Below, piece by piece: positions 640 to 63,071 of a stretch of DNA of 64,000 bases; the first letter of the stretch is position 1; every line of letters starts with the position of its first letter. The stretch is from Eledone cirrhosa. Its lineage: Eukaryota. The notes under the pieces are model-generated. The model was not told the origin of the DNA and ran no database searches. It saw only the letters and a list, made by a program, of their open reading frames with translations. The position numbers were made by a program, and so were the translations under genes. The stretch spans positions 372,310,001-372,374,000 of the forward strand of contig OZ024740.1 of NCBI GenBank assembly GCA_964016885.1, given 5' to 3'.

Positions 640-960
640 AATTAATAAAAACAATGAATAAAAACAAAGAAACAGTTCCTTATATTAAAAAAATTCATCA
701 TTTTACGATCGTTTCTAGGATATATATGTGTGTGTTGGTATGTATATTATATAGATCTATGTAAACATTTTACAAACTAACAGAGGGAATATACATATAC
801 CTACACATATATATGCTGTCTTCAGAAATTATCTTGACTCTGTTTTCCTGTGATTTTCATCGAAAAAAATGTTGAATACATCTTCTCTTTTCATGATATT
901 TGGATTACATATAGTTCTCATACGGATTGGACACTACCGTATATTTTGGTAGATTTATCT
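640..960. mobile_element. 5'-inverted Penelope terminal-repeat fragment (family B) with truncated hammerhead on minus strand
   Basis: 640-829 matches 38541-38721 directly; 830-960 is the reverse complement of 38411-38541; flanked by (TA)n on both sides; minus strand reads CTGAAGA...ctaGAAACGATCGTAaaatgatg. Confidence 0.8.
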
Positions 961-981
961 ACATATATATATATATATATA

Positions 982-1590
982 AATGGAATAGAATGAAACG
1001 AAATTTCATTTCTCACTCTTAGTACAGCAGTTACTTAAATGTAAGTATGTATGTATACGTACATACATATATGTATACAGACGTACAGTAGTATGTATAT
1101 ATATACATACATGCACACATATATATATTCACGTATCGGTTTACCGATACGTGCATATATATATGTATACATACGTCTGTATACATATATGTATGTACGT
1201 ATACATATACACACACACACACACATATATATATATATATATATATATATATATATATATATATATATATATATATATATATATATATATATATATATTA
1301 TATATATATATATATACACATATGTGTATATATATATGTATATATATATGTATATTTATATATATATATATATATATATATATATATATATATGTATATA
1401 TATATGTATATTTATATATATATATATATATAAACGGATAAAATGAAACTAAATTTTATTTCTCACTCTTAGTACGGCTGTTACTTAAATATAAGTATGT
1501 ATACGTACATACATATATGTATACAGACGTACAGTAGTATGTATATATATATACATACATGCACACATATATATATGTACGTATGGATTC
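982..1590 (+). repeat. Diverged direct duplication (~982-1200 and ~1432-1590) separated by a (TA)n tract
   Basis: aatgaaac.aaattt.atttctcactcttagtac.gc.gttacttaaat.taagtatgt...cagacgtacagtagtatg present twice. Confidence 0.75.
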
Positions 1591-1743
1591 ACCGAACATT
1601 TATATACTTACATACTTATATATATATGTATATATAACTTTTGCATATATATATATATATATATATGCAAAAGTTATATTTAATTTGCAACAGCTTAAAA
1701 GTTTTATAACTGATATAAAGCACTCAACAATGTACTGGAGTAA

Positions 1744-2068
1744 ATATTCAATATATTAATAAATGGAAACTATATATATAAAACCATAATTATTTTATTA
1801 TATATATTTCAAGGGCAACCAAGGCAAATTTTGGTGCGCTTTCATCAGATAAAATATAAAATTTGTTTTATAAATGTTGACATACCCGCGGAGAACCTTC
1901 AACAGTCAAGGTTGTTTTTCCGCGGATATGTCAACATTTAAAAAATAAATTTTGTATTTTATCTGATGAAAGCGCACCAAAACTTGCCTTGGTTGCCCTT
2001 GAAATATATATAATGAAATAATTATGGTTTTATATATATAGTTTCCATTTATTAATATATTGAGTATA
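1744..2068. repeat. Fold-back (inverted repeat) module with ~150-bp arms ending at (TA)n/(GA)n
   Basis: 1744-1896 is near reverse complement of 1914-2068. Confidence 0.85.
1955..2020 (+). ncRNA. Minimal type-I hammerhead ribozyme (antisense twin at ~1791-1856 on minus strand)
   Basis: tattttat-CTGATGA-aagcgcaccaa..ttggttgccctt-GAAA-tatata-TA-atgaaata: stem I, core, stem II, palindromic mini stem III. Confidence 0.7.
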
Positions 2069-60235: not shown

Positions 60236-60612
60236 ATAATCAAGGTTTAGCAAATAAGAAAAAGTTTCAAAATAAATTTTAAAAAATTCACTGTACTCAC
60301 TATGGTTACCTTTACCGAATCGGTTTCGAGTCTCAAAAATAAATGGACAGTCCTTGCGGCCTTCCATTGAAAAGATAAACTCTCGGGAACAATTTTGAAT
60401 AGAGCCAGTTCGTAATTTGAACTCGGAATTTTATATTCTCCGAGTGAAAAGAACCTTCTGACGAGAGTTTATCTTTTCAATGGACGGCCGCAAGGACTTT
60501 CCATTTATTTTTGAGACTCGAAACCGATTCGGTAAAGGTAACCATAGTGAGTCCAGTGGATTTAAAAAAAATTATTTTGAAACTTTCTCTTATTTGCTAA
60601 ATCTTGATTATA
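60236..60612. repeat. Fold-back module with ~150-bp arms ending at (TA)n
   Basis: 60236-60385 is near reverse complement of 60462-60612. Confidence 0.9.
60453..60539 (+). ncRNA. Hammerhead ribozyme with canonical core and extended stem II
   Basis: acctt-CTGACGA-gagttt[..]agactc-GAA-ACCGA(t)TCGGT-A-aaggt. Confidence 0.8.
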
Positions 60613-60645
60613 TATATATATATATATATATATATATATATATAT

Positions 60646-62510
60646 TTGATAACATGGATCTCTACAATGCCAACTGGGATGCAATTATTAACGAACTATC
60701 ACATATCGACTGGTATTTACACACGCCCACACTTCAACCAACATCAAAACATCAAGGCAGATCTTTGTAGACACTCACAAATATATGTACAAAACACCCC
60801 ACCAAAACCTGTGAACAAAACCAAGTGCAGTATCCCACAAAACAGGAAAACAATTATCAGAAAAATAAAAAGAACAAACAAAAAAATTAACACACTAAAA
60901 TACTGCCAACAGGAACAGACACATTCAATGGCTATCGCCCTGCTTGAGTAAAACAAATATAACCCCCAGCAATGCATGATGACCATCATCAATAACCAGA
61001 GAATAGCTGAAGAGAGGTGGGCCATTGAGAAAATAAAACTCAACCCCAAAGTGTTCTTCTCATTCGCTAAAAAACACAAGGTCACCGTCTCCACTGTTGG
61101 CCCCCTAGTTGATGCAAATGACACACTCCAGGACAATACCAAAACCATGTGCGAGATACTGAAGAAACAATACTGCTCTGTTTTCAGCAACCCTGATATG
61201 GCCGATCTGGGCTGTATCAGTGATATTAACCCTCACCACACTATATCAGACATAACATTTGGCGCCCCTGATGTCTTAGCGCAATAAACGAAATTTAATT
61301 AAATTCAGCAGTAGGCCACGACAGGTTCCCTGCTTGTGTCCTGAAGGTGTGTCGACACCAACTTGCAACTCCTCTTGCTAATCTGTGGAGGAACTCACTG
61401 GACACTGGCTATATTCCTGAAAACTTTCTGTCCCTGTCCGTTGTCCCAGTTTTCAAAAAGGGAAATAAGTCCCATGCAGTGAACTACCGTCCGATCTCAA
61501 TCACCTCTAATATTATCAATGTATTTGAGAGGGTGGCGAGATCACGAATAACCCACTTTCTTGAAAGCAACGGCCTGCTGAAATCCTACCAACATGGGTT
61601 CCATAATGGAAGGGATTGCCTAATGCAGCTCCTGCATCACTTTGACGATGTTTTGAGAGCCTTGGGAGAGGGCTCCAACACTGATGTCATCTACCTTGAT
61701 TTCAGCAAGGCCTTCGACAGGGTTGATCATAAGATTTTACTGAAAAAACTATCCAATGTTGGTGTCTCTGGAAGGTTACTACAGTGGATCAAATGTTTCC
61801 TGACAGGCAGAACTCAGCATGTTGTAGTCGAAGGAGTAAAATCAAGCCCTGCCAACGTCCGCAGTGGCGTCCCACAAGGCACTGTGTTGGGCCCACTTCT
61901 TTTCATCATATACATTAATGACATTACTGACATCATCAAACACAGTAACATCAGAATCTTCGCAGATGATTCCAAGCTCCAAAGGGTCATCAATGAGATG
62001 GGTGACCGGACTTGCCTTCAGTCAGACCTACTGGCTGGCTGTTATCCAATGGGCAGAGATGGATAATATGCTGTTGAATGAGGATAAATTTGAAAAAAGG
62101 GTGCTCTGAAACTACCATACTCTCTTCCTTCGGGTGAAACTCTGGTGGCTTCCAATAACATCAGAGACCTGGGAGTAATTGTGGACAACAATGTAAGCTG
62201 GGCCACTCATATAAACAGCAAAGTTGATATGGCCCGCAGAATGTCTGCCTGGATTCTCAGAACTTTCCAGTCGAGAGATATCCACACTGTTGTACTTCTC
62301 TTCTCCACTTTTGCTCGACCCCACCTTGAATACTGTTGTCCACTGTGGTCACCCCACACGAAACAAAGTATCATGAAAGTTGAAGCACCTCAAAGGTCAA
62401 TTACAAAAAAGATATTTGGCATGACAGGCCTTGACTATTGGGGTCGATTAGAAAAGCTCAAACTTTATTCTCTTCAACGTCGCCGTGAGCGCTAGATTAT
62501 CTGTAAAACT
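60646..62510 (+). mobile_element. CR1-group LINE ORF2 fragment (RT pseudogene)
   Basis: NPKVFFSF, VVPVFKKG..NYRPISITS, QHGF, YLDFSKAFDRVDH, SGVPQGTVLGPLLF, FADD, RDLGV, RPHLEYCCPLWSPH, LYSLQRRRER. Confidence 0.9.
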
Positions 62511-63028
62511 AGAAATGTAGTATATAGCATAAGATGTACTGAAGGACAATTTGGAAGATAAAAATATAGTGTACAGCTCGTAGTATAGGGGAACGGATAA
62601 ATGAACACTGGCGAGACCTTCAAGATAGTAAAGAATCATCTGTACTCTACCAACATGCTAAAATAGAACATAAGGGTAAATTAGAGAACATAGAAATAAA
62701 AATAGAATCTACACACAGAAAAGATGCAATGTTTAGACAAATCACAGAAGCAATAAACATAAATGAACTCCAACCAAAATTAAATAGAAAACATGAGTGG
62801 AACAGCAACATCACAACTTACAATTAAGGACAAAATGAAAACACACACGCACATAAAACAAAGAACTAACCAGTAACATGTAAATAAACAAATAAATAAA
62901 CGAATATAAACACACACAGACACCCGGATGTAACACATGCGCAAACTAAGTACACAACACACACGCAAAAACAAGATGGCGTAGGACAGAACAAAGGAGA
63001 GGCACAAAAACAAAGAAAATTATCCCCA

Positions 63029-63071
63029 GTCACTGAAGAGGTCACATAATGTGTGACGAAAGAACTTTCAC
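63029..63071 (+). ncRNA. Hammerhead motif upstream of a third PLE ORF
   Basis: gtca-CTGAAGA-gGTCACAtaatgTGTGAC-GAAAG-aa-CTT-tcac; stem I has one mismatch. Confidence 0.55.

What the first reader, a model, noticed from the sequence alone, without database searches (positions are those of the whole stretch)
640..63071. Hammerhead ribozyme zoo: at least 12 motifs from about 9 unrelated families in (TA)n-inserted modules
Seen: type-I hammerhead folds at 1955-2020(+), 8347-8388(+), 21829-21921(+), 27772-27822(-), 33280-33331(-), 38597-38725(-), 39737-39870(+), 40300-40346(+), 44480-44526(+), 53917-53967(-), 59651-59773(+), 59920-59970(-), 60453-60539(+) and 63029-63071(+), plus decayed ones at ~8604-8650, ~31575-31615 and ~53611-53648. 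That is roughly one per 5 kb. Families share only the catalytic core, and most have a tiny palindromic stem III (TATATA, CGATCG, CAATTG, CACGTG, CCGG). Known: PLE terminal repeats and retrozymes carry minimal hammerheads thought to act as dimers. Inference: many PLE families, or non-coding ribozyme-only derivatives mobilised by the PLE RT/GIY-YIG proteins encoded here, are seeding self-cleaving RNA modules into TA microsatellites throughout this genome.
Basis: partly seen in the sequence, partly recalled or inferred. Interest (0 to 1): 0.85.

Follow-up and report, generated by a model that had tools for sequence, protein, structure and literature searches.

The report
Penelope retroelement tails carrying hammerheads
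The many hammerhead RNA motifs in this stretch of animal DNA are real: most are the tail ends of Penelope-like jumping genes sitting in TA repeats, and two belong to small non-coding repeats that were likely copied by the same machinery, so this is a known kind of system at an estimated density above the published cases I read.

Summary
The 14 motifs form 10 families. Seven are ends (pseudo-LTR or 3' UTR) of Penelope-like elements: six Hydra-clade, one Neptune-type. Two (60453, 8347) are ORF-less, circularly permuted units of 486 and about 440 nt, i.e. non-LTR retrozymes. One (21829) is an old ORF-less 290-nt unit of unresolved parentage. All eight families measured show fixed 3' ends and ragged 5' ends, usually at (TA)n. 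The window is not special: twelve 50-kb samples extrapolate to roughly 1-3 x 10^5 motifs genome-wide. Hydra elements with (TA)n preference and hammerheads are published, one from Octopus (Craig 2021), as are retrozymes. What adds something: the density, and retrozymes bearing the same insertion signature as the autonomous elements. Cleavage, expression and circles are untested; no RNA run was listed. The scan noted similar modules in other genomes (e1-6787993, e1-7810660), none in this one.

The parts
657..963 (-). Family A tail, cut at the 5' side through stem I (Hydra-clade 3' end)
   Evidence: (score 10)
1791..1856 (-).
1955..2020 (+). Family D hammerhead; 3' end of a Hydra-clade element with a 1.44-kb 3' UTR
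   Evidence: L038, L052
8241..8570 (+). Family H insertion (hammerhead 8343-8392, inverted 5' piece); ORF-less 437-443-nt circularly permuted retrozyme
8604..8650 (+). 3' half of a hammerhead-like motif between TA runs
8725..8836 (+).
21829..21921 (+). Family J hammerhead, decayed copy; old ORF-less unit of about 290 nt, parent unresolved
27659..27825 (-). Family E tail (hammerhead 27772-27822, core CAGAAGA); Hydra-clade 3' end
31575..31615 (-). 3' half of a hammerhead-like motif, 5' core absent in this copy
32868..33255 (.). Inverted pair of a further family; each arm keeps the 3' half (GAAAC-AAUUG-UA), 5' core decayed here
33267..33454 (.). Family F: hammerhead 33280-33331(-) with an inverted 3' piece on +
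38411..39311 (-). 5'-truncated Hydra-clade element: endonuclease fragment 39311-38848 and family A hammerhead 38725-38597
39608..39925 (+). Inverted family A copy (hammerhead 39737-39870)
39950..40553 (+). Upstream pseudo-LTR of a Hydra-clade element (family B hammerhead 40300-40346, core CCGAAGA)
   Evidence: 98% over 604 nt to 44133-44733
40589..43149 (+). Hydra-clade RT plus GIY-YIG ORF in three frames (broken)
44133..44733 (+). Downstream pseudo-LTR (hammerhead 44480-44526), ends in TA repeat
51740..53765 (.). Inverted pair (51740-52146, 53359-53765) of family L: same insertion pattern, no intact hammerhead core
53830..54420 (-). Family F unit (hammerhead 53917-53967); pseudo-LTR of a Hydra-clade element
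   Evidence: L333
56351..58740 (+). Second Hydra-clade ORF (727 aa, then a frame break in the endonuclease)
59651..59773 (+). Family C hammerhead, 3' end of the second Hydra-clade element
   Evidence: L449
59896..60089 (.). Family E: hammerhead 59920-59970(-) joined to an oppositely oriented 3' piece
60122..60608 (.). Family G insertion (hammerhead 60453-60539 on +, inverted 5' piece on -); ORF-less 486-nt circularly permuted retrozyme
62400..64000 (+). Neptune-type element in partial tandem: GIY-YIG end, pseudo-LTR with family I hammerhead 63029-63071, then the broken ORF, which runs on beyond the window

Best explanation
The motifs are hammerhead folds in the terminal repeats of at least seven Penelope-like retrotransposon families and in two short ORF-less repeats (retrozymes), all likely written into (TA)n tracts by Penelope-type target-primed reverse transcription. 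Steps: (1) Shown: families A-F are ends of Hydra-clade elements and I of a Neptune-type element; G and H are circularly permuted non-coding units; copies have one or two fixed 3' ends 100-310 nt past the core, ragged 5' ends, frequent inverted 5' pieces, and TA flanks. (2) Inferred: the GIY-YIG nuclease nicks (TA)n, the nicked end pairs with 3-6 nt of UA-rich sequence inside the RNA just past the ribozyme, and reverse transcription starts there and usually stops early. The ribozyme lies next to the start point, so even the shortest insertions keep it; this, with many families active, explains the density. (3) Inferred: G and H borrow the same proteins; their templates are likely ribozyme-cut, ligated circles copied for more than one turn (about even odds against uncut multimers). 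(4) Inferred: the ribozymes cut as dimers or with protein help in full-length or tandem transcripts; single dispersed copies are mostly dead-on-arrival fossils with no host role.
For: 13 hits vs 0.38 shuffled. Compensatory changes among 10 sister subfamilies of D: 96% of cells paired, 6 of 15 pairs change on both sides, 1 of 500 shuffles as high (motifs were picked by a pattern that fixes part of stems I and III, so this leans towards the structure). Hydra ORF upstream on the same strand in 19 of 30 A loci and 12 of 30 E loci; read-through or linkage for D (L038), F (L333), C (L449, 1 of 4 other loci), B (window); Neptune-type hits upstream in 12 of 25 I loci. Hydra motifs RWK/RWR, DKT, CxCX5C, CxxC, CxH. 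Fixed 3' and ragged 5' ends in 8 of 8 families. G: 486-nt period, 1.11-3.15 units in 28 loci chosen for spanning the junction, wrap-around in 7 of 30 of the first set. H: period 437-443. Circular folds z -4.9 and -7.8 against 40 shuffles. At least 3 nt of TA-alternating sequence continues the element at 7 of 9 ends with a read-through copy, against 3-10% background (for G and H the single reference copy gave 2 nt and the longer match is read from other copies). Core mismatches 15/783 vs 595/15159 elsewhere.
Against: No cleavage, expression or circle was shown. G insertions do not start at the cut site: 22 of 28 extend 33 nt or more upstream of it, 5 by 5-15 nt, 1 starts there, which fits uncut multimers as well as circles. 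Two units of one G insertion differ at 3.1% of sites against 4.0% between insertions, and disagree at 11 of 115 subfamily-marker comparisons, so a single template is not proven. No autonomous parent with homology to G or H was found in the DNA held. Whole families carry non-consensus cores (E: U4A and U17 in 54 hits; B: U4C) and family L has none. F and the first end of D show at most 1 nt of microhomology. Most motifs do not fold as hammerheads alone. Links for C, D and F each rest on one or two loci. Clade labels rest on motifs, not on a tree.
Confidence: 0.85

Rival explanations
1. Same elements, but ribozyme cleavage plays no part in mobilisation: templates are uncut read-through or multimeric transcripts and the hammerheads ride along or act in another step.
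For: G copies read across the cut site without a pile-up. Family L spread without an intact core; E and B have fixed core variants. In vitro, hammerhead mutants did not change insertion by the anole element and no RNA reads ended at the cut site (PMC11167929). Naiads lack canonical hammerheads (PMC8557442). Only 1 of 9 Xenopus retrozyme dimers cleaved (bioRxiv 2026.07.22.740005).
Against: Core kept in most families and across subfamilies with compensatory changes; core varies about half as much as flanks; in G, shared variants at the core are 0 of 268 cells vs 1.0% elsewhere while private ones are 1.5% vs 1.2% (weak). G and H fold well as circles.
Confidence: 0.35
2. G, H and J arose once from pseudo-LTRs and spread as local tandem (minisatellite) amplification or by a LINE, not by Penelope proteins.
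For: Local amplification is proposed in bioRxiv 2026.07.22.740005. LINE-type RT fragments lie in the window. No parent element was found for G, H or J.
Against: Copies are dispersed over many contigs, mostly 0.6-1.7 units long, end at the same internal positions before (TA)n and often carry inverted 5' pieces (9 of 30 G, 17 of 25 H), as the autonomous families do. No poly(A) or simple-repeat tail of their own.
Confidence: 0.08
3. The motifs are host-selected regulatory ribozymes.
For: High density makes some intronic or UTR copies likely; 64 of 79 copies have all 10 core bases intact.
Against: Private mutations hit the core as often as flanks in G; copies are young-looking repeats 93-98% alike; no host gene was recognised in the window.
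Confidence: 0.03
4. Chance matches in AT-rich, repeat-rich DNA.
For: Single motifs have unremarkable folding z-scores (-1.9 to +0.8); shuffles give about 6 hits per 600 kb at the threshold used.
Against: 13 vs 0.38; family-wide conservation; position in pseudo-LTRs.
Confidence: 0.01

Closest known systems
Hydra clade of C-terminal EN+ Penelope-like elements (Craig et al. 2021, PMC8557442; includes Hydra-1_Obim from Octopus bimaculoides)
   Same: RWK, DKT, CxCX5C linker, CxxC and CxH around the catalytic E/N, C-terminal GIY-YIG, (TA)n insertion, type I hammerhead near the 3' end, inverted 5'-truncated copies.
   Different: At least six families in one 64-kb window against one listed for Octopus; units longer than the usual <3 kb (4.2-kb repeat period for the window element; 0.7-1.4-kb 3' UTRs); several hammerheads have 30-115-nt stem II regions or fixed core variants, unlike the compact ones in that paper's file S2.
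Minimal hammerheads of metazoan PLEs (Cervera and de la Pena 2014, PMC4209133)
   Same: Many consensus families per genome, mostly dispersed single motifs from truncated PLEs, opposite-strand pairs 100-700 bp apart, short palindromic helix III.
   Different: Estimated 1-3 x 10^5 motifs here against about 9,000 in Xenopus tropicalis and 4,000 in coelacanth (different descriptors, so not strictly comparable).
Metazoan non-LTR retrozymes (Cervera and de la Pena 2020, PMC7229834; Li, Clavereau and Pollet 2026 preprint)
   Same: ORF-less head-to-tail units with a type I hammerhead each, GC 36-38%, well self-paired as circles, coexisting with PLEs.
   Different: G is slightly above the 150-450 bp range and has a 55-nt stem II region; copies are mostly 0.6-1.7-unit insertions with the PLE insertion signature, which the passages I read do not describe; circles not shown. 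Axolotl has up to 120,000 copies but in a genome about ten times larger.
Internal initiation by the anole Poseidon element PAc (Frangieh et al. 2024, PMC11167929)
   Same: Reverse transcription starts inside the RNA downstream of the hammerhead at two sites, leaving an optional tail; AT-rich targets.
   Different: [quoted passage not shown]
Neptune clade PLEs
   Same: Family I: CX4CxxC linker, two cysteines inside GIY-YIG, DK.G-type motif, pseudo-LTR hammerhead with 2-bp stem III.
   Different: Not placed on a tree; Nematis not excluded.

Membership tests
Type I hammerhead ribozyme | Conserved core (CUGANGA, GAAA, NUH) with three helices, stem I open | tested here: met
   fixed variants in E (U4A, U17) and B (U4C); family L fails
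Type I hammerhead ribozyme | Covariation supporting the helices | tested here: met
   D sister subfamilies only; selection pattern leans towards the structure
Type I hammerhead ribozyme | Site-specific self-cleavage | not testable with these tools
   bench test; no RNA holder listed
Penelope-like element (EN+) | RT with C-terminal GIY-YIG endonuclease in one ORF | tested here: met
   (GIY-YIG E 0.0093, below Pfam cut-off); window copies are broken, an unbroken 742-aa frame lies in L229
Penelope-like element (EN+) | Pseudo-LTRs, partial tandems, inverted 5'-truncated copies | tested here: met
Hydra clade | RWK motif and DKT in place of DKG | tested here: met
   RWR/RWK, DKT in both window ORFs; L333; definition
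Hydra clade | CxCX5C linker, no CCHH, CxxC and CxH flanking catalytic E/N | tested here: met
   CxH seen in the second ORF and L229, not in the read frame of the first; L229 lacks the first linker cysteine
Hydra clade | (TA)n insertion preference and canonical hammerhead | tested here: met
Hydra clade | Phylogenetic placement of the RT | not tested
   no named reference proteins were held
Neptune clade (family I) | CX2-5CxxC linker and two cysteines between GIY and YIG | tested here: met
   shared with Nematis, so the clade name is not settled
Non-LTR retrozyme (G, H) | Short head-to-tail units, hammerhead in each, no ORF, low GC | tested here: met
   (longest ATG frames 52 and 57 aa; GC 38% and 36%)
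Non-LTR retrozyme (G, H) | Expression as linear and circular monomer RNA | not testable with these tools
   no RNA holder listed
Non-LTR retrozyme (J) | Head-to-tail or permuted units | tested here: not met
   no same-strand repeat of the unit and no adjacent upstream PLE ORF in 24 loci or 25 loci

The most novel reading that the evidence does not exclude
This genome holds on the order of 10^5 hammerhead modules from dozens of families, and its ORF-less retrozymes G and H are circular RNAs that Hydra- or Neptune-type Penelope proteins copy for more than one turn, primed by a few base pairs between nicked (TA)n and an internal UA-rich site. That would be direct genomic evidence for Penelope-driven retrozyme mobilisation and a priming mode that differs from the one Poseidon element studied in vitro, and it suggests that many 'unclassified SINEs' in octopus repeat libraries are such tails.
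Probability: 0.4. Interest if true: 0.58.

Novelty: new member of a known kind. Interest (0 to 1): 0.38.

Why it matters
It explains the 'zoo' with known parts, and gives a system in which two open questions can be tested cheaply: which enzyme moves animal retrozymes (proposed, not shown, in PMC7229834) and what the Penelope hammerhead is for. Families with a consensus core, with fixed core variants and with no core coexist and can be compared. It also bears on repeat annotation: an Octopus vulgaris study lists 893 recently active 'unclassified SINE' families and its main text does not use the word ribozyme; whether those include such tails is untested.

Tried and rejected
Rfam scan at E<=1: only microsatellite look-alikes among the 150 rows shown, 75 not shown. 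Pfam did not recognise the Hydra RT; a profile from 25 homologues did. Homologues carried no useful names, so the host is not identified; 'octopod-like' is my guess from genome size, TA/TG richness and the published Octopus Hydra element, and no call names the organism. A motif modelled on the published Hydra-1_oBim hammerhead found nothing in the DNA held. Rejected: D, F as non-autonomous (first pass found no ORF within 1.5 kb; long 3' UTRs and internal microsatellites explained it). Rejected: 5' ends of G at the ribozyme cut site. Circle versus multimer could not be settled from within-insertion divergence (H gave only 10 comparisons). The inverted-piece count of 0 of 30 for E is an artefact of the probe; one search shows opposite-strand pieces in several E loci. 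A search aimed at J hit a neighbouring family instead. The density sample stayed at 600 kb. Literature searches for octopus or cephalopod ribozymes and retrozymes found Craig 2021 as the only paper joining them; subscription papers and Lunse 2017 were not seen, nor the preprint's supplements, which may bear on the novelty of the insertion signature.
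Full report
Observation. The window is AT-rich animal DNA (GC 34%) from a 3.0-Gb assembly (G000:C1:372310001-372374000). The named stretches are as described. A relaxed type-I hammerhead descriptor gives 13 hits at score >=12 against 0.38 (max 3) in 60 shuffles; a stricter one gives 6 against 0.10. 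Twelve of the 14 named motifs pass; 21829 and 33280 are damaged copies of families whose other members pass. Extra copies lie at 1791(-), about 700(-) and 8725(+). Among 10 sister subfamilies of the 1955 motif, 6 of 15 pairs change on both sides and 96% of cells pair (the picking pattern fixed part of two stems). Taken alone, the motifs have unremarkable folding energies and mostly do not adopt the hammerhead fold, as expected of forms that need a partner (PMC4209133).

The proteins. Two ORFs (40589-43149, 56351-58740) are 50% identical over 452 aa and carry RWK/RWR, DKT, YRDD, a CxCX5C linker and CxxC/CxH motifs. These are the diagnostic features of the Hydra clade, which is described as inserting into (TA)n and carrying hammerheads (PMC8557442 section 11); the paper's supplement lists Hydra-1_Obim from Octopus bimaculoides. 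The first ORF sits between 604-nt repeats 98% alike, each with the family B hammerhead. A third element at 62400 onwards has a CX4CxxC linker and cysteines inside GIY-YIG, Neptune-type by motifs. All three window copies are broken.

What each family is. I searched the genome with each family and examined the best 24-30 loci (5 for C; top-scoring copies only, 1.5-kb flanks). A: Hydra ORF upstream in 19 of 30 loci; E: 12 of 30. D: 1 of 30, at 1.44 kb, with the 3' UTR shared by a second locus. F: one of 30 loci reads straight into a Hydra ORF start; the apparent 5' end is an internal microsatellite. C: the same ORF end lies upstream in 1 of 4 other loci. I: Neptune-type hits upstream in 12 of 25. 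G: no ORF; upstream sequence wraps round to the sequence after the cut site in 7 of 30 loci; a second search gave a 486-nt period and 1.11-3.15 units in 28 loci after dropping two duplicates. H: period 437-443 nt in three loci, 0.64-1.31 units in 29. J: about 290 nt, 73-85% alike, no repeat and no adjacent ORF. So 7 of 10 families are PLE ends, 2 are retrozymes, 1 is open. Family L, offered as a decayed motif, has GCAA in 19 of 21 copies and no 5' core.

Insertion signature. All 8 families measured have one or two fixed 3' ends and ragged 5' ends. Inverted 5' pieces are common (21 of 30 D, 17 of 25 H, 9 of 30 G). 48 of 60 hits outside the window lie within 330 nt upstream of (TA)6, against 19% expected. 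Where a read-through copy shows what follows the 3' end, 7 of 9 ends continue with at least 3 nt that match (TA)n (B, C, E, G, H, I twice; not F, not the first end of D), against 3-10% background. Two internal start sites match the in vitro work on an anole element, which however reports no homology to the target (PMC11167929).

Density. Twelve 50-kb stretches at round coordinates gave 37 descriptor hits (about 6 expected from shuffles); four stretches were pure satellite with none. Extrapolated: 1.8 x 10^5 (bootstrap 0.9-2.8 x 10^5) before subtracting background, 3.3 x 10^5 by homology. The window (20 per 100 kb) is at the top of the range 0-16. All DNA held gave 531 hits in 64 clusters at 85% identity, 20 with three or more members, inflated by my targeted searches. 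Published counts: about 9,000 in Xenopus, about 5,000 in a mussel and up to 120,000 in axolotl.

Mechanism. Shown: identity of the families, end structure, TA association. Inferred: nicking of (TA)n by GIY-YIG, priming at an internal UA-rich site past the ribozyme, early termination, hence many short hammerhead-bearing tails. Inferred: G and H use the same proteins. G copies cross the cut site freely (22 of 28 by 33 nt or more), units in one insertion agree at 104 of 115 subfamily-marker comparisons (45 disagreements expected if independent), and both monomers fold well as circles (z -4.9, -7.8); this fits circles and also homogeneous uncut multimers. The core varies about half as much as flanks (15/783 vs 595/15159; G, F, H sets whose query excluded the ribozyme; 11 of 90 loci dropped as duplicate or truncated), while private changes hit it at the flank rate in G: selection in source lineages, neutral decay afterwards. 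Against a needed cleavage step: fixed U4A and U4C families, the core-less family L, and published negative results. U4C is reported to lower activity in vitro yet permit viroid infectivity (PMC3088659).

Comparison and verdict. It works like, and by motifs and architecture is, the known PLE-hammerhead system plus non-LTR retrozymes. New here are the number of families, the estimated density, and retrozymes with the full PLE insertion signature; PLE mobilisation of retrozymes is proposed but not shown in PMC7229834 and the 2026 preprint. Papers seen: PMC8557442 passages, section 11, supplement part 2 of 59; PMC4209133 parts 1-2 of 4; the preprint parts 1-3 of 5, no supplements; PMC11167929 parts 1-2 of 4; PMC7229834 passages and Discussion; PMC13282606 passages and section 6; PMC6765202 and PMC3088659 passages; Lunse 2017 only as cited. 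Earlier scan notes held nothing for this genome and did not change the reading. The host is not identified; 'octopod-like' is a guess. New member of a known kind; interest 0.38.

Noticed in passing
window 51740-52146 and 53359-53765; 48 blast hits in loci held: Abundant family with the PLE insertion pattern but no intact hammerhead core (GCAA in 19 of 21 copies); a sister family keeps GAAA.
   Followed up: partly
L391-L420: A further high-copy hammerhead family (about 130 nt past the motif, ending in (CT)n(TA)n) found by accident next to family J.
   Followed up: no
window 47416-50441: Broken LINE-type element with endonuclease and RT domains (Pfam hits); a diverged piece at 15240-15704.
   Followed up: no
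window 61299-62495: LINE-type RT fragment directly followed by the Neptune-type element's 3' end.
   Followed up: no
window 9830-10018 and at least eight related copies between 11269 and 31846: SINE-like dispersed repeat of about 190 nt.
   Followed up: no
window 32391-32720: 330-nt imperfect palindrome of a repeated family, TA-bounded, no hammerhead core recognised.
   Followed up: partly
window 56141-56407: Three short head-to-tail copies of the 5' end of the second Hydra-clade element, separated by TA runs.
   Followed up: no
L246-L250, L261-L265, L266-L270, L276-L280: Four of twelve sampled 50-kb stretches are pure satellite arrays (periods 25, 19, 554 and 84 nt) with no TA runs and no hammerheads.
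   Followed up: partly
L229:7426 to L230:1200: Hydra-clade element with an unbroken 742-aa frame between two hammerhead-bearing repeats, a sign of recent activity.
   Followed up: partly
window 38848-38725: The window's family A copy has only 130 nt between ORF and ribozyme, against about 730 nt in most copies: an internal deletion.
   Followed up: no
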